Assembly: GCA_001781915.1 (NCBI GenBank)
Contig: MFMU01000009.1
Location: forward strand, 7,449 to 48,826
Source of the DNA: Candidatus Kaiserbacteria bacterium RIFOXYD1_FULL_47_14
Lineage (GTDB): Bacteria > Patescibacteriota > Minisyncoccia > Phycocordibacterales > Phycocordibacteraceae
Direction: 5' to 3'
Length of the DNA: 41,378 bases
The notes beneath the pieces were generated by a model, which worked only from the letters and a program-made list of their open reading frames with translations, had not been told where the DNA came from and did no database searches. The position numbers and the translations under genes are program-made. Position 1 is the first letter of the stretch. Every line of letters starts with the position of its first letter. Shown piece after piece: positions 3,152-37,889 of this stretch.

Positions 3152-3835
3152 CTATTTCTCTTTGCGCCAAGCATCGATATTCGCGTGGTGTCCGGTTTGG
3201 AGGACCTTCGGGACGCTGTAATTTTTACCTTTATACAAAATAGTTTCGGGGCGGGTGTAGACCGCTGATGAAGCGATTCGGCGTTCTTCGACTGACGCAT
3301 CTTTACCCAGAACGCCTGGGAGACGGCGGGTGACAGCGTCGACGATAGCGAGCGCGGGGATCTCTCCGCCGGTATAGACCGCCTCGCCCACAGCGAATTC
3401 TTTTATTGGTGCAAGCGTCTTCAGGATTTTCTTCGCGCGTTCGTCGATTCCTTCGTAACGGCCACAGACGAGAACAACATCGTCATATTTCGTGAGCGCG
3501 TCGGCATCTTTATTCGTAAATTGTTTGCCGCTCGGACTAAACCAAATGACCACTCGCCCATGTTTGGACTTCCGAAGTCCCAAAACTGACTTCTGAAGTC
3601 CTTTTCGCCCAAATGCTTTCTCGACTGCACGAACAACAGACAGTGCAGTCATCACCATCCCAGGCCCACCGCCGTATGGGCGTTCGTCTACCTTGCCCCA
3701 TTTATTATTGACAAAATCGCGCGGGTTCTGATAGTCAACTTTAATTTTTTTCTCTTTTCGAGCGCGTCCAACAATCGATGCATTCAAATAAGCATCGCAT
3801 GTTTCTTCAAACAATGTAATTAAGTGAAATTTCAT
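3152..3835 (-). CDS. trmD: tRNA (guanine37-N1)-methyltransferase TrmD
   Basis: 227-aa ORF with the TrmD motifs ERPYGGGPGMVM, VCGRYEGIDER, YTGGEIPALAIVDAVTRRLPGVLG and YTRP. It carries an in-frame palindromic insert (see the repeat at 3555-3601). Confidence 0.93.
   Translation of the reverse strand: MKFHLITLFEETCDAYLNASIVGRARKEKKIKVDYQNPRDFVNNKWGKVDERPYGGGPGMVMTALSVVRAVEKAFGRKGLQKSVLGLRKSKHGRVVIWFSPSGKQFTNKDADALTKYDDVVLVCGRYEGIDERAKKILKTLAPIKEFAVGEAVYTGGEIPALAIVDAVTRRLPGVLGKDASVEERRIASSAVYTRPETILYKGKNYSVPKVLQTGHHANIDAWRKEK
3555..3601. repeat. REP-B-like palindrome doublet inside trmD, in frame
   Basis: GGACTTCCGAAGTCC (3566-3580, 7-bp dyad) is followed 7 nt later by GACTTCTGAAGTC (3588-3600, 6-bp dyad). 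The 14-nt left flank CGCCCATGTTTGGA (3555-3568) is identical to 39463-39476 in the tkt gene. The element is translated on the minus strand as GLQKSVLGLRKSKHGR. Confidence 0.75.
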
Positions 3836-6694: not shown

Positions 6695-8929
6695 TTATTT
6701 CGCCACGGCGACGGCCTCGTCGAATTTGACAGAAAGAAGTTTGGAGACGCCGTCGCCGCCCATCGTGACTCCGTAGAGAATGTTGGTGCGGCTCATCGTC
6801 TCGCGGTTGTGCGTAATAACGATAAGTTGTGAGCGCTTCGCGAGGTTCTCTATCATATCGCCGTAACGACGGCTGTTCGCTTCGTCGAGCGCTGCATCGG
6901 TCTCGTCGAGAATAAGAAATGGCGGGGGATTCACCTGACTCATCGCGAAGATAAGCGCAATAGAAGTGAGCGCTCTCTCGCCTCCGGAGAGCTGCATAAG
7001 TGAATGTAATTTCTTTTTCGGCAGATTGACGGTTATTTCTATGCCCGCCCGTTCTTTCTTTCCCTCGTCGTATGACTCCTCGGGATCTTCGGACTCATCT
7101 AATGAGTCCTCGACTTCGGCTTCTTCCGGCTCTTCAAGAGCTAGACGCGCGCTCCCGCCGCCGAACATCAGTGCGAAGTATTCACTAAACGATGCATTAA
7201 CCCGAGCAAGGCCGTCGGAGAAATGCTTCGTGAGTTCTGTGTCCAGATCGCGTATAAGCGCACCGAGACCCGCTGCCGACTTCGCGAGATCGTCTAATTC
7301 TTTGGTAAGAAATGTTTCGCGTTCTGAAATTTCTTTATGTTCATGCCGGATATCTTCGCCCATACCGCCTGCTTCTTCGAGGCGAATCTTCGTACGCTCT
7401 AGAGAGCGCTTGCGTTCTTCTTGCACCTTTCGTTCTTCTGCGACTCCGCCAGCTGGCGGATCGAAAAGCGGATCATAGGAAATGGCTGTTGCACCAGTGA
7501 GCGCAAGCGCTTCGCCTTTATTGCGTTCGAGTTCTTCTTCGAGAAGTGAGAGTTCATATTCGCGCGCTTCGCAGCGAGCCACTTCTCCTTCTTCGTGCGC
7601 TTTTTCTTGAGCGGCATCAAGAATGCGATGGCGAATTTCTCGACCAGTTTCTTCAAATGCGATCATTGCTTCACGCGCGCGAGCGCGCGCGGATTCTGCT
7701 TTTTCAAGCGCTTCCGAAGTGAAAGAATACTTTTCAGCAAGTGCGGTTCGTTCTGTTTCGAGTTTCAGCGCTGCATCTTCTTCATCAGAAAAATAGTCAT
7801 CGCGCGGCGCGCAGTGCCGCGCAAAAAAGATTTTTACTGTCGCGCGAATCGCATCGAGTGCAGCACGCAATGCTTCTATACCGCCATCTGCAACATTCCG
7901 AGTTTGTTTCTCTACTTCCTCATGTAATGCTTCGAGTTCTTCACGAGGTACTTTTGCATACGGCTCGTGTGCGACTGTTGCTGCGCGACGCTTCACTTCG
8001 GCGAGCGCTCCCTCTACACGCCCCATATCGCGCGAGAGTGTCGCTCGTGAGGCCGAAAGTTCAGAGACCTCCTGCTCTGCTCTCCGTAGTGTTTCAGTGC
8101 GCTGCATGGTCTCGTTATCTGTCGATTTTGGATCTGCCACTCGTTCAAGCTCAGCACTCACTACTGCAAGACGCTCTGTCGCCTTTTGTTTTCCTTCTGT
8201 AATTTTTAATTTTTCTTGGGAAAGATAAGCATCTTCAATAGCAAAATAGGTCTGCGCAAGACTGATGAGATCAGCGCGAAGCGCATCAGCACGCTCGAGC
8301 TTCTTCACCTGACCTTCAAGGAACCGTAGATGCGGTGCGAGTTCTCGACGAAGAGAATTCACTTGTCCAATATTTTCTTCGGTTTTCTCGAGTTTCTTCG
8401 TTGCTTCCTGCTTCTTGAATTCATATACCTTCAATCCAAGTGCATCCTCGAGCATCGCACGCCGTTCGCGCGCGGAAGCGAGCAGAATCCGATCTGCTTC
8501 GCCTTGAGAAATAATGTGGTGGCCGGTCTCGCCGATATTCGCGCCCGCGAGCAATTCTTCAATATCGCGCAGGCGCACGCGCGAGCCGTTAATGGAATAT
8601 TCGCTCGTCCCGTCACGGAAGACCGCGCGCTCGATCGCAACTTCATCAAAATCAATTTTGAATGTTCGGCGAGAATTGTCGAAAATAATAACTACCGCCG
8701 CTCGATTCGCGCGCGGTATTGAATGTGAGCCATTGAAAATAAGATCCTCCGCGCGCTTCCCGCGCATACTCTTCATCGACTGCTCGCCGAGCGCGAAGCG
8801 GAACGCCTCGGCGACATTACTTTTCCCTGAACCATTCGGCCCCACAATTGCGGTGGTCGCACTCGAAAAGTCCAAGACGGTCTTCTTGGCGAATGATTTA
8901 AATCCGACGATCTCCAGTCGCTTCAGCAT
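6695..8929 (-). CDS. smc: SMC-family chromosome segregation ATPase, unusually short (744 aa), no recognisable hinge
   Basis: The N-terminal head reads MLKRLEIVGFKSFA...VGPNGSGKSNVAEAFRFALGEQS. The C-terminal head reads LSGGERALTSIALIFAM...PFLILDETDAALDEAN...VITHNRETM...LYGVTM. The roughly 400 aa between them are E/R/A/L/K-rich and look like coiled coil. Confidence 0.88.
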   Translation of the reverse strand: MLKRLEIVGFKSFAKKTVLDFSSATTAIVGPNGSGKSNVAEAFRFALGEQSMKSMRGKRAEDLIFNGSHSIPRANRAAVVIIFDNSRRTFKIDFDEVAIERAVFRDGTSEYSINGSRVRLRDIEELLAGANIGETGHHIISQGEADRILLASARERRAMLEDALGLKVYEFKKQEATKKLEKTEENIGQVNSLRRELAPHLRFLEGQVKKLERADALRADLISLAQTYFAIEDAYLSQEKLKITEGKQKATERLAVVSAELERVADPKSTDNETMQRTETLRRAEQEVSELSASRATLSRDMGRVEGALAEVKRRAATVAHEPYAKVPREELEALHEEVEKQTRNVADGGIEALRAALDAIRATVKIFFARHCAPRDDYFSDEEDAALKLETERTALAEKYSFTSEALEKAESARARAREAMIAFEETGREIRHRILDAAQEKAHEEGEVARCEAREYELSLLEEELERNKGEALALTGATAISYDPLFDPPAGGVAEERKVQEERKRSLERTKIRLEEAGGMGEDIRHEHKEISERETFLTKELDDLAKSAAGLGALIRDLDTELTKHFSDGLARVNASFSEYFALMFGGGSARLALEEPEEAEVEDSLDESEDPEESYDEGKKERAGIEITVNLPKKKLHSLMQLSGGERALTSIALIFAMSQVNPPPFLILDETDAALDEANSRRYGDMIENLAKRSQLIVITHNRETMSRTNILYGVTMGGDGVSKLLSVKFDEAVAVAK

Positions 8930-8937
8930 TACTGACT

Positions 8938-8943
8938 ATTGTA
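8938..8943 (-). promoter_or_regulatory. Extended -10 box TGcTACAAT, 8 nt before the smc ATG
   Basis: The minus strand reads TGCTACAAT agtcagta ATG(8929). Confidence 0.45.
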
Positions 8944-8961
8944 GCAAATACAAAAATTACT

Positions 8962-9000
8962 GGAGGTGAAACACCCAAGTTGCTTGGGTGTTTCACCTCC
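8962..9000. repeat. Palindrome C1 (perfect 18-bp stem, 3-nt loop)
   Basis: GGAGGTGAAACACCCAAG ttg CTTGGGTGTTTCACCTCC. It shares the GGT(G/T)AAAC..AAGTTGCT architecture with C2 (9930-9972) and the string GGTGAAAC(A/C)CCCAAGT with C3 (37867-37889). Confidence 0.85.
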
Positions 9001-9097
9001 AAGTTCTGGGTCTCTTGCTTTTGGCTTCGCAAGGAGCATACTTTATATGTGAGGTTTCGATCTCACTGTTGCTCTTTGGTTCAACCAATAACTCAGT

Positions 9098-9102
9098 GGA
9101 GG
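9098..9102 (+). promoter_or_regulatory. Shine-Dalgarno GGAGG, 5 nt before the ATG at 9108
   Basis: The plus strand reads GGAGG tacct ATG. Confidence 0.55.
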
Positions 9103-9107
9103 TACCT

Positions 9108-9872
9108 ATGGCTTCGGTCAGAAATCGCAAGACGCGGGCTCGAGAGACGCTTGACTATGCTCTCGGAAAGGCAAAATATGTTTCTTTCGGTCAATTGTCT
9201 GTATCCGAAAGTAACGAGCTCTTGAGAACCACGCTGCAAGATGTCGATTTAAGGGAACTGCGCGGGTTCAAACTTCTCAAGGATCTTCTGGTTTTTCGAC
9301 CAGGAAGTACCGTTTACGGAGGAGAGACCTCGCACACTCTGGATCTTAAAACCCTCGAGCTAAGTGACACGGTCTCTTTCTTGACTCGTGGATTCGAAGA
9401 AACTCTTCCAGTAGATATGGCCACTCATGTTCTTCGTCTGTATCGCTGGATATGGAACTGGCAGATGACATTCAAACGAAACGAATCGGGAGAAGAAACG
9501 GATGATAAGAAAGTGGCATCATCCTGGGGCAGGTCCGCACACCATCATAAAGGAAGCGGTGAAGTCCTAGCCGTTCGACGGCCTCACAACCACACCAGGG
9601 CGGACGAGAATCTTATCGTAATCAACTTTTGGTATGAAAAGATCCCGTTTGAGGAAAGGCACATCATCACAAGAATCGAAGTGGACGACCTTCCTCTTCA
9701 AAACTTCCGCAAGCATTTCGGCGTGTTATATGCTCAAGCGGCCGTCGAACTCATCGGAGAGCTCAGAAGTGCCTACTCAAGCACTGCGAGCGAACTCAGG
9801 TCCCAGCTTAATTATATTGAACGCAGGACCGCAGAGTTAGAGCGACTTTCCGGGGCAATAACATATCGATAA
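9108..9872 (+). CDS. Hypothetical protein (254 aa, orphan; no motif recognised)
   Basis: An open frame with a strong SD and its own terminator. The track start at 8988 is a GTG inside palindrome C1 and is rejected. The gene lies on the opposite strand to both neighbours (smc, rnc). Confidence 0.6.
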   Translation: MASVRNRKTRARETLDYALGKAKYVSFGQLSVSESNELLRTTLQDVDLRELRGFKLLKDLLVFRPGSTVYGGETSHTLDLKTLELSDTVSFLTRGFEETLPVDMATHVLRLYRWIWNWQMTFKRNESGEETDDKKVASSWGRSAHHHKGSGEVLAVRRPHNHTRADENLIVINFWYEKIPFEERHIITRIEVDDLPLQNFRKHFGVLYAQAAVELIGELRSAYSSTASELRSQLNYIERRTAELERLSGAITYR

Positions 9873-9888
9873 GTAAGATCTTTGTAGC

Positions 9889-9917
9889 AAAAACCACCGG
9901 AGTTTCGGTGGTTTTTT
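9889..9917 (+). terminator. Rho-independent terminator (usable in both directions)
   Basis: The structure is AAAAA CCACCG gagttt CGGTGG TTTTTT: an A-tract, a 6-bp GC stem and a T-tract. It starts 17 nt after the stop of the 9108-9872 ORF. Confidence 0.75.
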
Positions 9918-9929
9918 GTTTTTATGCAC

Positions 9930-9972
9930 TGAGAGGTTAAACCCTTAAGTTGCTGAGGGGTTTAACCTCTCA
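9930..9972. repeat. Palindrome C2 (15-bp perfect outer stem)
   Basis: TGAGAGGTTAAACCC ttaagttgctgag GGGTTTAACCTCTCA. The centre AAGTTGCT is shared with C1. It lies 4 nt downstream of the rnc stop codon. Confidence 0.85.
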
Positions 9973-9975
9973 AAA

Positions 9976-10677
9976 TTACCACTGCATCTTTTTAAGTCCT
10001 GCTTCTGCAGCTGCTTGTTCCGCCTCTTGCTTGCTCTGCCCTTCTCCGCGAGCAATTTCTTCAGTATCAATAAAAACGCCGACCGTAAAATGCCTTGCAT
10101 GGTCAGGCCCTTCTTCAGAAAGCGTTTCGTAGCGCGGCGTCGCACTGCGTTTTTCTTGCGAGGATTCTTGAAAGCGACTCTTCGCATCCTGATATGAACG
10201 CTTCGCGATTACCTCGTCGATCTTCCCGTAGAGATTCTTCGCGATAAATGCTTCAGCACCCGCATAGCCCGCATCAAGATAAATGGCGCCGATAATCGCT
10301 TCAAATGCATCGGCGAGTATCACATCGCGCGCACGGCCAGTGTCCTTCGCTTCGCCTTTTGAAAGCAAGAGGTAGTCATTAATGCCGAGCGCCTGTGCAC
10401 TTTCGGCGAGCGACATCGTGTTCACGAGCGCAGCACGATAGCTGGTCAAATCGCCTTCCGGCTTCGCAGGAAATTTTTTAAAAAGGAAATCGGTAGCGGC
10501 GAGTTCGAGTACGGCGTCGCCGAGAAATTCGAGTCGTTCATTATGACTGCCGGTATAATCGCGATGTTCGTTGAGGTACGAGCGATGCGTCAACGCCTCG
10601 ATGAGGAGGTTGAAATTGTTGAATAAAACGCCGAGTTGTTTTGAAAAAAGTAAGAAATCAGGCATGAGTACTCGCAT
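9976..10677 (-). CDS. rnc: Ribonuclease III
   Basis: The RNase III signature HRSYLNE...NERLEFLGDAVLEL is present, with a C-terminal dsRBD (GPDHARHFTVGVFI...GEGQSKQEAEQAAA). Confidence 0.93.
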   Translation of the reverse strand: MRVLMPDFLLFSKQLGVLFNNFNLLIEALTHRSYLNEHRDYTGSHNERLEFLGDAVLELAATDFLFKKFPAKPEGDLTSYRAALVNTMSLAESAQALGINDYLLLSKGEAKDTGRARDVILADAFEAIIGAIYLDAGYAGAEAFIAKNLYGKIDEVIAKRSYQDAKSRFQESSQEKRSATPRYETLSEEGPDHARHFTVGVFIDTEEIARGEGQSKQEAEQAAAEAGLKKMQW

Positions 10678-12057: not shown

Positions 12058-12600
12058 CGAGTATTCCGGGTTAAAAAGTTCAACGATTTTTGTCCCATAT
12101 TGCAGGACAACATCGTGAGTTCGACGGCTCCCATAATCCAGTATTCTCAACTTCCCATTGTGAAAGCAAAAATTACGAGGTTCTTCAAAATGATGTCCAT
12201 CATCGGAGACCTTGCCGTTGGTTAACTCGAGAAGCTGCCACCAGAAACCAGTTTCTTCCAATTGGCATGGTTCATCGAATCGTTGAATGTTCAAAAGACC
12301 AAAGAGCGAAAAGTAGGTTGGTTGGAGGAATGGATTTTTTGTCTTTCGGTAAAACCGAAATTCATTCCAGTTAGCAGATAGGCCTCTGAATAAAAACCAT
12401 CTGAAACTGCTCATATTTTTTGTCGGAAATTCGAGATATCTTTTCAGAATTTTCCATCGCCTTCCTTTCGCGCCACAATGAAAGAACATTTGCCATGAAC
12501 AGCGTGCTGCAAAAAAGAAATGCACGATAGGAAGTTTAACTACTATCCCCAATGATGGAAAAACAAACACTATTCGGTCATTACCTTTTCTGATTTGCAT
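12043..12600 (-). CDS. Hypothetical protein, possibly a minimal protein-kinase-like fold
   Basis: 185 aa. Kinase-like landmarks seen by eye are GIVVKLP (beta3 Lys?), NEFRFY (alphaC Glu?), DDGHHFEEPRNF (catalytic-loop D..N?) and ILDYG (DFG-like). The gene is visibly more AT-rich than its neighbours, with a strong SD and its own terminator. Confidence 0.55.
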   Translation of the reverse strand: MQIRKGNDRIVFVFPSLGIVVKLPIVHFFFAARCSWQMFFHCGAKGRRWKILKRYLEFPTKNMSSFRWFLFRGLSANWNEFRFYRKTKNPFLQPTYFSLFGLLNIQRFDEPCQLEETGFWWQLLELTNGKVSDDGHHFEEPRNFCFHNGKLRILDYGSRRTHDVVLQYGTKIVELFNPEYSKPAR

Positions 12601-26562: not shown

Positions 26563-27234
26563 CTATTCGAGAAGAAGTCCTCTGAAATCTTTTAATTCCT
26601 CCTTTCTTTGCAAAATCGATTCCAGAGATGAAAGCGCGAACTCTTTATACTCACCAACATTTTTAAATTGCCCTAAAATAATTTCTTTTTCGCAAATGCC
26701 CTTAATCCTCGTATCTATATATTCTCCCCAACTTGACTTGCTCTCTACTAACTTGACAGTTGTGGCGATTGAACCGCCAAGTTGATGCACATGATCATTC
26801 AAATTCACATAGGAACTGGCGTGGAGAAGATATTCGTTTGAATCAATATGTATCGCTTTGAATCTTCCCTGAAATAACGCCCCGTTTCTTTCATATTTAT
26901 TATTAAAGTACCAAGTATATCCGCCAATTCTTTTCATAAACTCACTGATACCTCCATCTACGAGCTGTTCTAAAATGAGATGGTAATGATTCGGATTCAA
27001 ACAATACGCAAGAATATTAACAAGCTTCTCCGACAGTGTGGCGGTTGAACCGCCACACTGTCTACGCGAATTCTCATAGAGACTTCCTATCGGATCAATA
27101 ACATTGAATTCAATCATACTTTTAAAGAACCTTTCTATGTCGTATCGGTTCGTAAAGATAATCCTCTTATCAACCCCTCTGTTGAATACATGATAAAATT
27201 CTTCATTCGCGAAAGGTGCTTTTCTTGTACCCAT
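26563..27234 (-). CDS. IS200/IS605-family Y1 (HUH) transposase-like protein, RAYT-like (paralogue A)
   Basis: Present are FYHVFNRG, the HUH motif NHYHLIL, GALFQGRF and SSYVNLN (Tyr helix). Two internal segments (QCGGSTATLSE and LGGSIATTVKL) are encoded by REP-A palindromes. Confidence 0.85.
   Translation of the reverse strand: MGTRKAPFANEEFYHVFNRGVDKRIIFTNRYDIERFFKSMIEFNVIDPIGSLYENSRRQCGGSTATLSEKLVNILAYCLNPNHYHLILEQLVDGGISEFMKRIGGYTWYFNNKYERNGALFQGRFKAIHIDSNEYLLHASSYVNLNDHVHQLGGSIATTVKLVESKSSWGEYIDTRIKGICEKEIILGQFKNVGEYKEFALSSLESILQRKEELKDFRGLLLE
26763..26779. repeat. REP-A copy 2 (degenerate, inside the RAYT-A ORF)
   Basis: TGGCGATT g AACCGCCA has one mismatch in the 8-bp dyad. It is translated as GGSIAT. 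Confidence 0.65.
27032..27062. repeat. REP-A copy 3 (perfect 15-bp dyad inside the RAYT-A ORF)
   Basis: GACAGTGTGGCGGTT g AACCGCCACACTGTC. It is translated as RQCGGSTATLS, about 15 codons upstream of the HUH motif. Confidence 0.9.
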
Positions 27235-37866: not shown

Positions 37867-37889
37867 ACTTGGGGGTGAAACCCCCAAGT
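37867..37889. repeat. Palindrome C3 / bidirectional terminator-like hairpin
   Basis: ACTTGGGGG tgaaa CCCCCAAGT has a 9-bp stem. It contains GGTGAAACCCCCAAGT, which differs at one position from GGTGAAACACCCAAGT in C1. It lies between two convergent stop codons. Confidence 0.7.

What the first reader, a model, noticed from the sequence alone, without database searches (positions are those of the whole stretch)
8962..9972. Orphan gene cassette bounded by two related long palindromes, wedged between rnc and smc
Seen: C1 (8962-9000) is a perfect 18-bp stem, GGAGGTGAAACACCCAAG ttg CTTGGGTGTTTCACCTCC. C2 (9930-9972) has a 15-bp perfect outer stem, TGAGAGGTTAAACCC..GGGTTTAACCTCTCA. They align with each other and share the AAGTTGCT centre. 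Together they bracket a 254-aa ORF with no recognisable motif, on the opposite strand to both neighbours. Unlike the surrounding leaderless core genes, this ORF has a roughly 60-nt leader, a GGAGG Shine-Dalgarno and its own terminator. Established: rnc and smc are directly adjacent in some bacteria, for example the Bacillus subtilis rnc-smc-ftsY arrangement. Inference: the palindrome-bounded unit is an insertion. The palindromes could be a third REP-like family (C1 begins with GGAG) or the ends of a small non-autonomous element carrying cargo of unknown function.
Basis: partly seen in the sequence, partly recalled or inferred. Interest (0 to 1): 0.6.

Follow-up and report, generated by a model that had tools for sequence, protein, structure and literature searches.

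The report
REPIN-like palindromes flanking an inserted gene
The two long palindromes are copies of a small mobile hairpin repeat (REP/REPIN type, tied to tyrosine-transposase genes) that is scattered through this tiny groundwater bacterium's genome. They sit on either side of a rare, self-contained gene of unknown function that was inserted between two normally adjacent housekeeping genes.

Summary
C1 (8962-9000) and C2 (9930-9972) are real, far beyond chance, and bracket a 254-aa ORF (9108-9872, +) lying between smc and rnc (both on the - strand).

1. The segment is an insertion. In 12 of 20 same-genus genomes rnc and smc are 17-57 nt apart. Here they are 1046 nt apart, and an 8-bp direct repeat (AAAATTAC) lies flush outside both palindromes.
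2. The palindromes belong to a REP/REPIN-like family: 16 units at 11 loci in this 628-kb genome. The genome also has 12 RAYT-like genes, each flanked by its own hairpin. In sister species the C1-type hairpin flanks orthologues of the window's RAYT A.
3. The gene is not an orphan. About 20 homologues exist, all in Paceibacteria-type (CPR) genomes. Each carries the same -10 box, a covarying 5' stem-loop, a GGAGG ribosome-binding site and a terminator, in at least 6 different genomic contexts, none with palindromes. Two are flanked by 36-38-nt direct repeats.
4. Close relatives keep the gene at this site but lack C1 (two genomes) or C2 (one genome).

Best reading: a relocating gene cassette whose two new intergenic gaps hold REPIN-like elements. 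A palindrome-bounded mobile unit is not excluded. The protein's function is unknown. Earlier notes of this scan had already described the REP/RAYT system in this genome.

The parts
6695..8929 (-). Short SMC-like gene (744 aa). Its extended -10 box TGCTACAAT (8938-8946, - strand) lies 8 nt before the ATG, so the mRNA is probably leaderless.
   Evidence: Pfam SMC_N, E 1.9e-69. The promoter was read, and the same TGnTACAAT box precedes smc in the relatives.
8953..8960 (.). Left copy of the 8-bp direct repeat AAAATTAC, 1 nt outside C1. It looks like a relic of the rnc stop-codon region (GTAATTTT on the - strand).
   Evidence: The chance that two random intergenic 14-mers share 8 or more bases is about 1.3e-3.
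8961..9001 (.). C1: a REPIN-like inverted doublet of the unit CTTGGAGGTGAAACACCCAAG, with a 19-bp perfect stem and a TTG loop.
   Evidence: Identical arms occur at C20:17253 and C20:34181.
9015..9044 (+). Putative promoter of the 254-aa gene: TTGCTT, 18 nt, TACTTT.
   Evidence: Read and conserved in L001, L002 and L110. The strict sigma-70 scan did not call it, so this part is inferred.
9049..9066 (+). Conserved 5' leader stem-loop GTGAGGTTTCGATCTCAC, at or near the mRNA 5' end.
   Evidence: It is present in all 20 homologue loci. Pairing holds in 99.2% of cells, two pairs show compensatory changes (12 cells), and 0 of 500 shuffles reach the observed score. It is unique in this genome and has no Rfam match.
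9098..9102 (+). GGAGG Shine-Dalgarno sequence, 5 nt before the ATG.
   Evidence: conserved across the alignment.
9108..9872 (+). 254-aa protein (P0001) of a rare family seen only in Paceibacteria-type (CPR) genomes. The model shows N-terminal helices, a six-stranded sheet and a 54-residue C-terminal helix.
   Evidence: The AlphaFold2 model has pLDDT 84.8. The only fold resemblance is a weak NTF2-like one, Z about 5.
9889..9916 (.). Bidirectional intrinsic terminator shared by the 254-aa gene and the convergent rnc gene.
   Evidence: As RNA it folds at -15.3 and -15.4 kcal/mol on the two strands. It is conserved in L001, L002 and L110.
9930..9972 (.). C2: a diverged REPIN-like doublet with arms GAGAGGTTAAACCC(C/T)T(C/A)AG. 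It lies in the rnc 3' UTR, between the stop codon and the terminator.
   Evidence: A perfect 19-bp version is present in L001 and L110. It is absent in L002.
9972..9979 (.). Right copy of the direct repeat AAAATTAC. It contains the rnc stop codon (TTA at 9976-9978, which reads TAA on the - strand).
9976..10677 (-). rnc (RNase III).
   Evidence: Pfam Ribonucleas_3_3 (E 2.7e-40) and dsrm.
26563..27234 (-). RAYT-like gene A. It is the orthologue (69-72% identity) of the sister-species RAYT genes that are flanked by C1-type units, so it is the likeliest enzyme of the C1 family.
37868..37888 (.). A single C1-type unit, CTTGGGGGTGAAACCCCCAAG.

Best explanation
Three separable things are nested at this locus.

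(1) A segment of about 1.05 kb was inserted into an otherwise tight rnc|smc junction. It is flanked by the 8-bp direct repeat AAAATTAC, which includes the rnc stop codon.

(2) The core of the segment is an autonomous transcription unit: a -10 box, a covarying 5' stem-loop, a GGAGG ribosome-binding site, a 254-aa ORF and a terminator. It belongs to a rare gene family, seen only in Paceibacteria-type genomes, that turns up at different genomic places. In at least two other genomes it lies between long direct repeats, so it behaves as a relocating gene cassette. The protein's function is unknown. The model shows a weak NTF2-like sheet plus a long helix. I infer that the conserved 5' hairpin controls the stability or translation of its mRNA.

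(3) C1 and C2 are REPIN-like elements. Each consists of two inverted copies of a REP-like hairpin unit of about 21 nt, joined by TTG or CAA. They belong to the REP family which, in sister species, flanks the orthologue of this window's RAYT-like gene A. By analogy with REP/RAYT and IS200/IS605 systems, the HUH tyrosine transposase is expected to recognise the folded hairpin in single-stranded DNA and copy it to new sites. C1 and C2 occupy the only two non-coding gaps that the insertion created, and they are gained and lost independently of the gene.

Shown here: the anatomy, the family census, the RAYT-hairpin pairing, the empty sites, and presence or absence in relatives. Inferred: RAYT-mediated copying, the order of events, and any role for the RNA hairpins.
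For: Insertion:
- rnc and smc are 17-57 nt apart in 12 of 20 same-genus genomes.
- They are also adjacent in the close relative L006, where the homologue sits between rnhB and the L32 gene.
- The 8-bp repeat AAAATTAC lies flush outside C1 and C2; the chance value is about 1.3e-3.
- The reconstructed empty site, TGG TAA TTTTTGTATTTGCTACAAT, resembles real ones such as L018 and L020.

REP/REPIN nature of the palindromes:
- There are 16 C1-type units at 11 loci, as singlets and as perfect doublets, against 0.01 expected in the window.
- The genome has 12 PF01797 hits with HUH and Tyr motifs. Each gene is flanked 5' and 3' by its own palindrome of about 21 nt.
- RAYT genes in G007, G053 and G046 are flanked by TTGGNGGTGAAACCNCCAAG units and are 69-72% identical to the window's RAYT A.
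- Doublets of sister families lie in frame inside genes for enolase, MiaA, TsaD and others. The enolase insert is absent from 8 orthologues.

Separability of palindromes and gene:
- L001 and L110 have the gene here without C1.
- L002 has it without C2.
- Homologue loci in other contexts carry the same leader hairpin and their own terminator-like hairpins, and none of those examined has long palindromes.
- L007 and L048 have 38-nt and 36-nt direct repeats around the unit and no palindromes.

Rarity of the gene: it was not found in 40 related genomes. The leader motif occurs in 3 of 301 genomes of the order, and one of the other two hits precedes a homologue.
Against: - No relative with the gene at this site lacks both palindromes. 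C1 is shared by the window and the outgroup L002 at the same position, so it is probably as old as the insertion.
- The 8-bp direct repeat is flush with the outer edges of both palindromes. That is what a bounded transposon (repeat, end, cargo, end, repeat) would look like. Under my reading it requires both REPINs to have settled right at the edges of the insert. Selection makes this plausible, because only about 10-20 nt are free on each side, but I have not shown it.
- No RAYT gene in this assembly is flanked by C1-type or C2-type units. RAYT A is flanked by GTGGCGGTTCAACCGCCAC instead.
- C2 has no second doublet in this genome.
- Movement of these elements has not been observed directly. 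Nine metagenome contigs from several samples are identical over this region.
Confidence: 0.6

Rival explanations
1. The palindrome-bounded segment is itself one non-autonomous mobile unit, like a mobile insertion cassette or a MITE with cargo. C1 and C2 would act as its terminal repeats, and it would have been inserted as a whole, making an 8-bp target-site duplication.
For: The repeat AAAATTAC lies flush outside both palindromes. L002 has an analogous 8-mer, AAATTATT, next to C1 and at the rnc stop. The outer arms of C1 and C2 are related, 13 of 18 positions, and share the AAGTTGCT centre. Parsimony allows both palindromes to be ancestral to the three lineages. The genome holds two rve-type DDE genes.
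Against: The gene family is found in at least 6 other contexts, with no long palindromes in those examined. In L007 and L048 the direct repeats flank the bare transcription unit. C1-type doublets occur alone at 5 other loci and show no comparable direct repeats in the flanks read. IS200/IS605-type (RAYT) transposition makes no target duplication, which is established knowledge. The one IS examined has unrelated ends (TGCATAAGGCCAC...) and a 5-bp duplication. No second copy of the unit was found anywhere.
Confidence: 0.25
2. The palindromes are host regulatory structures kept for function rather than mobile DNA. C2 would be an RNA hairpin in the rnc 3' UTR, serving as a stabiliser or an RNase III autoregulatory target. 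C1 would be a terminator or insulator shielding the smc promoter from antisense read-through.
For: C2 begins 3 nt after the rnc stop codon and lies before the terminator, so it should be transcribed. As RNA it folds at -24.3 kcal/mol. On the - strand C1 is followed by TAATTTTTGT and scores as terminator-like. C1's arms are 37 of 38 identical between the window and L002, while the neighbouring spacer is about 80% identical.
Against: Identical or related palindromes sit inside coding genes and at unrelated loci. Relatives do without C1 or without C2. The loop flips orientation between close relatives. A proper terminator already serves both genes. A secondary, co-opted role is not excluded.
Confidence: 0.1

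Closest known systems
REP/REPIN-RAYT systems ('REPtrons') of Proteobacteria (Bertels & Rainey 2011, PMC3116915; Bertels et al. 2017, PMC5581495; E. coli TnpA-REP)
   Same: Short palindromic units are dispersed through the genome as singlets and as inverted doublets that fold into one long hairpin. Each family is tied to an HUH/Tyr (PF01797) gene that is flanked by its own unit. The transposase genes are diverged paralogues, not identical IS copies.
   Different: The host is a 0.63-Mb CPR genome carrying 12 such genes. The doublet arms are joined by only 3 nt (TTG or CAA), giving perfect palindromes of 41-47 nt. Family members also sit in frame inside housekeeping genes. In this assembly the C1 family has no RAYT gene flanked by it; the orthologous RAYT now carries a different hairpin.
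Rickettsia palindromic elements (RPE; Ogata et al. 2000; cited from my own knowledge, not checked here)
   Same: Palindromic repeats in a reduced genome that are tolerated in frame inside protein-coding genes as well as between genes.
   Different: RPEs are about 100-150 nt long and have no known associated transposase. C1 and C2 themselves lie between genes.
Mobile insertion cassettes and cargo-carrying MITEs (e.g. MIC231 of Bacillus cereus; cited from my own knowledge)
   Same: A passenger gene without a transposase, lying between related terminal repeats and flanked by a short direct repeat.
   Different: No matching transposase and no second copy were found. The terminal 'repeats' here are complete REPIN-like palindromes that also occur alone.
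Free-standing mobile genes of phages (seg/mob-type homing endonuclease genes; analogy only, from my own knowledge)
   Same: A patchily distributed single gene with its own promoter and terminator, wedged between conserved essential genes (rnc|smc, ftsA|ftsZ, rnhB|L32).
   Different: No nuclease fold or motif was detected. The hosts are cellular genomes. Direct repeats of 8-38 nt are not a homing signature.

Membership tests
REP/REPIN | A short imperfect palindrome present in many dispersed copies, far above chance. | tested here: met
   There are 16 C1-type units at 11 loci in 628 kb. The window has 4 matches against 0.01 expected. The reversed-pattern control found 0 matches in 61 genomes.
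REP/REPIN | A doublet of two REP units in inverted orientation that folds as one hairpin. | tested here: met
   C1 has a 19-bp perfect stem and folds at -22.5 kcal/mol. C2 is the same in L001 and L110. The spacer is only 3 nt, shorter than in the described REPINs.
REP/REPIN | A cognate RAYT gene flanked by the same REP unit in the same genome. | tested here: not met
   None of the 12 RAYT-like genes of this assembly (93.9% complete) is flanked by C1-type or C2-type units. The feature is met in the sister genomes G007, G053 and G046, whose RAYT genes are orthologues of window RAYT A.
REP/REPIN | A RAYT enzyme with the HUH motif and a catalytic Tyr (Y1 transposase fold). | tested here: met
   Ten of the 12 PF01797 hits are above the curated cut-off. 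The NH[FY]HLL and Y-x-x-x-N/K motifs were read in all 12 translations.
REP/REPIN | Extragenic location. | tested here: inconclusive
   C1 and C2 lie between genes. However, a C1-type doublet lies inside miaA, and doublets of sister families lie inside enolase, tsaD, mreC and other genes.
REP/REPIN | Mobility: presence or absence at orthologous sites. | tested here: met
   C1 is absent in L001 and L110, and C2 is absent in L002, with the gene retained in each. The enolase insert is absent from 8 orthologues. The direction of change (gain or loss) was not resolved.
Cargo-carrying MITE / mobile insertion cassette | A target-site duplication flush with the element's ends. | tested here: met
   AAAATTAC occurs at 8953-8960 and 9972-9979, with a chance value of about 1.3e-3. 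This was noticed after the fact.
Cargo-carrying MITE / mobile insertion cassette | A matching transposase, or further copies of the same bounded unit. | tested here: not met
   The unit is present once. The ends of the rve-type IS are unrelated. No DDE_Tnp_1 or TnpB gene was found.
Integron attC cassette | An RYYYAAC ... GTTRRRY core-site order at the cassette boundary, a promoterless cassette, and intI nearby. | tested here: not met
   Reading, C2 carries GTTAAAC ... GTTTAAC, which is the reverse order, and C1 has neither site. The gene has its own promoter-like box and leader. I did not search for intI.
Intrinsic terminator | A GC-rich stem followed by a T tract on the transcribed strand. 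| tested here: inconclusive
   On the - strand C1 scores as terminator-like. C2 has no T tract. The real terminator is at 9889-9916.

The most novel reading that the evidence does not exclude
The 254-aa gene, together with its covarying 5' stem-loop, may be a previously undescribed single-gene mobile cassette of Paceibacteria. It would insert next to the 3' ends or promoters of essential genes, duplicating 8 to about 60 nt of target. The protein, the hairpin, or both would take part in its own movement or retention. The REPINs would then be either hitch-hikers or the ends used for this particular jump.
Probability: 0.15. Interest if true: 0.75.

Novelty: new variant of a known kind. Interest (0 to 1): 0.45.

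Why it matters
REP/RAYT systems are described mainly from Proteobacteria. Two full-text searches for RAYT/REPIN together with Patescibacteria or 'candidate phyla radiation' found no paper linking them. This locus adds three points.
- A REP family can outlive, or drift away from, the hairpin that now flanks its transposase. That gives a natural case of enzyme-hairpin turnover.
- REPIN-like elements colonise whatever non-coding DNA a gene insertion creates in a genome that is 90% coding.
- A rare gene family always travels with a covarying 5' hairpin and is sometimes flanked by target duplications. This gives a concrete handle on how accessory genes move in CPR bacteria, which have few classical mobile elements.

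Tried and rejected
- Protein function. Pfam, NCBIfam, PHROGs, PADLOC, a PDB profile search, Foldseek against PDB, VIA-align wide, ESM Atlas by structure and ESM Atlas by features gave nothing beyond a weak NTF2-like resemblance (Z about 5, TM 0.33 or less). I looked by eye for tyrosine-recombinase and PD-(D/E)xK motifs; neither the motif order nor the fold fits.
- Rfam. No family matches the leader hairpin, C1 or C2.
- Integron attC. Rejected by reading the core-site order.
- Population polymorphism. Nine metagenome contigs are identical over 1.1 kb. The tenth, L102, diverges 9 nt from C1 into a 1104-nt rve-type IS. This could be an IS insertion variant or an assembly chimera.
- L001 as a clean empty site for C1. 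It is not one: 19 unrelated nt replace C1 plus 14 nt.
- Dispersal of the L007 and L048 direct repeats.
- My first palindrome census was swamped by runs of N and was redone.
- My crude ORF map is not a gene call.

Full report
**The observation**

The sequence shows C1 at 8962-9000 as GGAGGTGAAACACCCAAG-ttg-CTTGGGTGTTTCACCTCC. C2 at 9930-9972 has a 15-16-bp perfect outer stem. Both share the AAGTTGCT centre. Folded as single-stranded DNA they give -22.5 and -15.1 kcal/mol, and 0 of 200 shuffles fold as well.

The ORF between them runs 9108-9872 on the + strand (254 aa). It is preceded by GGAGG and followed by a terminator at 9889-9916. Its neighbours, both on the - strand, are a 744-aa SMC-like gene and rnc. 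The window belongs to a 628-kb, 23-contig, 47% GC genome of Paceibacteria/Kaiserbacteria type.

**The palindromes are a dispersed family**

The unit CTTGG[A/G]GGTGAAAC[A/C]CCCAAG occurs 16 times at 11 loci.
- It occurs alone as a short hairpin, CTTGGGGGTGAAACCCCCAAG. One such copy is at window 37868-37888.
- It occurs as inverted pairs joined by 3 nt. Copies at C20:17253 and C20:34181 have arms identical to C1.
- The window holds 4 matches against 0.01 expected.

A census of perfect palindromes found 88 with stems of 12 bp or more. Among them are about 20 of 41-47 nt, built the same way from other units (GTGGACGCC..., TGTAGACAC..., GGATTTCCGAAACC... and so on). Many share the AG-TTG-CT or AG-CAA-CT junction.

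**Link to RAYT-like genes**

The genome has 12 hits to PF01797 (Y1 transposase), 10 of them above the curated cut-off. The ORFs are 218-295 aa and carry HUH and Tyr motifs. Each gene is flanked, about 25 nt before the ATG and just after the stop, by its own palindrome of about 21 nt. These palindromes are the units of the doublet families.

No RAYT gene in this assembly is flanked by the C1-type unit. In same-genus genomes, however, the unit occurs in 11 of 61 genomes, with 0 control matches. RAYT hits in G007, G053 and G046 are flanked by it, and in two of those four loci also interrupted in frame by it. They are 69-72% identical to the window's RAYT A at 26563-27234 on the - strand. In this genome RAYT A carries GTGGCGGTTCAACCGCCAC instead. 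C1 therefore belongs to the REP family of the RAYT-A lineage.

C2 is a diverged relative:
- 13 of 18 arm positions match C1.
- Intermediates such as TTGGGGGTTAAACCCCCAAG exist in G005 and G014.
- Small GAGGTTAAACCTC hairpins occur at four other loci.

**Evidence that such doublets are inserted DNA**

Ten doublets lie inside long ORFs. Nine of these ORFs match Pfam families of housekeeping proteins: UDG, TsaD, enolase, MiaA (two doublets), a class-V aminotransferase, GH130, MreC, pol III delta' and a DUF4147/MOFRL protein. In enolase the palindrome encodes WKPGVHNNCGRLAST, which is missing from 8 same-genus orthologues. Earlier notes of this scan had already described RAYT A, RAYT B and the in-frame inserts. 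I re-derived them independently before reading those notes.

**The segment is an insertion**

I compared the rnc-smc junction in 20 same-genus genomes. In 12 of them the two genes are 17-57 nt apart, and the gap holds only smc's TGnTACAAT box. Others carry unrelated inserts of 123-1436 nt, including a YbjQ gene and several genes with no family. The junction is therefore a recurrently variable site.

In the window the gap is 1046 nt. The 8-mer AAAATTAC lies flush outside C1 (8953-8960) and outside C2 (9972-9979). The second copy contains the rnc stop codon. Random intergenic 14-mers share 8 or more bases with p of about 1.3e-3. Removing the insert and one repeat copy gives TGG-TAA-TTTTTGTATTTGCTACAAT, which looks like real empty sites.

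**The gene is not an orphan**

Twenty homologues (33-86% identity) exist, all in Paceibacteria-type records. None was found in 40 related species genomes. Their contexts differ:
- smc|rnc in the window, L001, L110 and L002
- rnhB|L32 in L006, where rnc and smc are adjacent
- ftsA|ftsZ in L004
- other places in the remaining loci
- a tandem pair in L040

Every copy keeps an A/T-rich -10-like box, a stem-loop G[TC][GA]AGGT..GATCT[CT][AG]C starting 5-8 nt after that box, a GGAGG and its own terminator-like hairpin. The stem is paired in 99.2% of cells and has two pairs with compensatory changes (12 cells). It also has an invariant G-U pair, and 0 of 500 shuffles reach the observed score.

The stem-loop motif is unique in this genome and has no Rfam match. 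It occurs in 3 of 301 genomes of the order. One of the other two hits precedes a 41% homologue; the other lies in coding sequence and is a chance match. Its 3' arm can alternatively pair with the Shine-Dalgarno region. That is only a lead.

In L007 the unit lies between 38-nt direct repeats. The second copy overlaps the 3' end of the convergent AhpC-like gene. In L048 the unit lies between 36-nt exact repeats, about 60 nt if mismatches are allowed. No long palindromes flank the gene in L004, L006, L008, L009 or L048.

**Are the palindromes the ends of the insert?**

| Lineage | Identity to P0001 | C1 | C2 |
|---|---|---|---|
| L001 and L110 | 85-86% | absent, replaced by about 19 unrelated nt | perfect copy present |
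| L002 | 71% | present at the same position | absent |

L002 also has an 8-mer, AAATTATT, at both ends. The loop orientation flips between the window and L002 (TTG versus CAA), and between L001 and L110.

Parsimony makes C1 as old as the insertion and leaves C2 open. The data therefore separate the palindromes from the gene family in general. They do not exclude that this particular insertion arrived already bounded by them.

I weigh the readings as follows:
- 0.6: independent REPIN colonisation of the two narrow permissive gaps
- 0.25: a bounded unit inserted as a whole
- 0.1: a mainly regulatory role for the palindromes

**The protein**

The AlphaFold2 model (pLDDT 84.8) has N-terminal helices, a six-stranded antiparallel sheet and a 54-residue C-terminal helix. 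The best structural matches are NTF2-like cones at Z about 5, which is within the noise for such searches. No sequence family matches. Its function stays unknown.

**Verdict**

C1 and C2 are further members of the REP/REPIN-RAYT-like system of this CPR genome. The cassette idea is right about the insertion, and probably wrong about the palindromes being its ends.

Noticed in passing
window 9049-9066, and the same place in 20 homologue loci: A covarying 5' leader stem-loop, GTGAGGTTTCGATCTCAC, always precedes this gene family. It has no Rfam match. Its 3' arm can alternatively pair with the GGAGG ribosome-binding site.
   Followed up: partly
L007:1779-1816 and 2717-2754; L048:2607-2642 and 3653-3688: In two distant homologue loci the transcription unit is flanked by 36-38-nt direct repeats. 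In L007 the second copy overlaps the 3' end of the convergent AhpC-like gene, as a target duplication would.
   Followed up: partly
L102:56-1158, which equals G000 C7:12062-13165; the junction is at window 9010: A 1104-nt IS abuts the window sequence 9 nt from C1 in one metagenome scaffold. It has an rve-type transposase, imperfect terminal repeats of about 28 nt, and a 5-bp duplication (ACTTA) at its C7 site. This is either an IS insertion variant or an assembly chimera.
   Followed up: partly
window 8980-8982 versus L002; L001 versus L110 at C2: The 3-nt loop of orthologous palindromes is flipped (TTG versus CAA) between close relatives, while the arms stay nearly identical. This suggests hairpin-mediated inversion or re-insertion.
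   Followed up: no
G000 C1:10544-10633: Four different REP-like units lie head to tail (GGACATCCGATGTCC, GGACATCGGATGTCC, CCAAGGTTCGACCTTGG, CTTGGGGGTGAAACCCCCAAG). The arrangement is a BIME-like mosaic.
   Followed up: no
G000 C6:12100-12144 and 12322-12365: Two doublets from different families lie inside the miaA reading frame. Contig C6 carries six doublets spaced about 3.6-4.8 kb apart.
   Followed up: partly
L093, L096 (sister-genome RAYT genes) and window RAYT A: The RAYT genes carry two extra in-frame copies of their own hairpin at fixed spacing (222/276/213 nt), encoding QLGGETPKL. An earlier scan note also describes this.
   Followed up: partly
rnc|smc junction in L015, L017, L021, L026, L027 and L028: The same junction holds unrelated small genes in other species of the genus (a YbjQ-like gene and several with no family). 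It is a recurrently variable site.
   Followed up: partly
L040:464-1168 and 1305-2009: Two tandem paralogues of the 254-aa family lie in one Paceibacterota genome.
   Followed up: no
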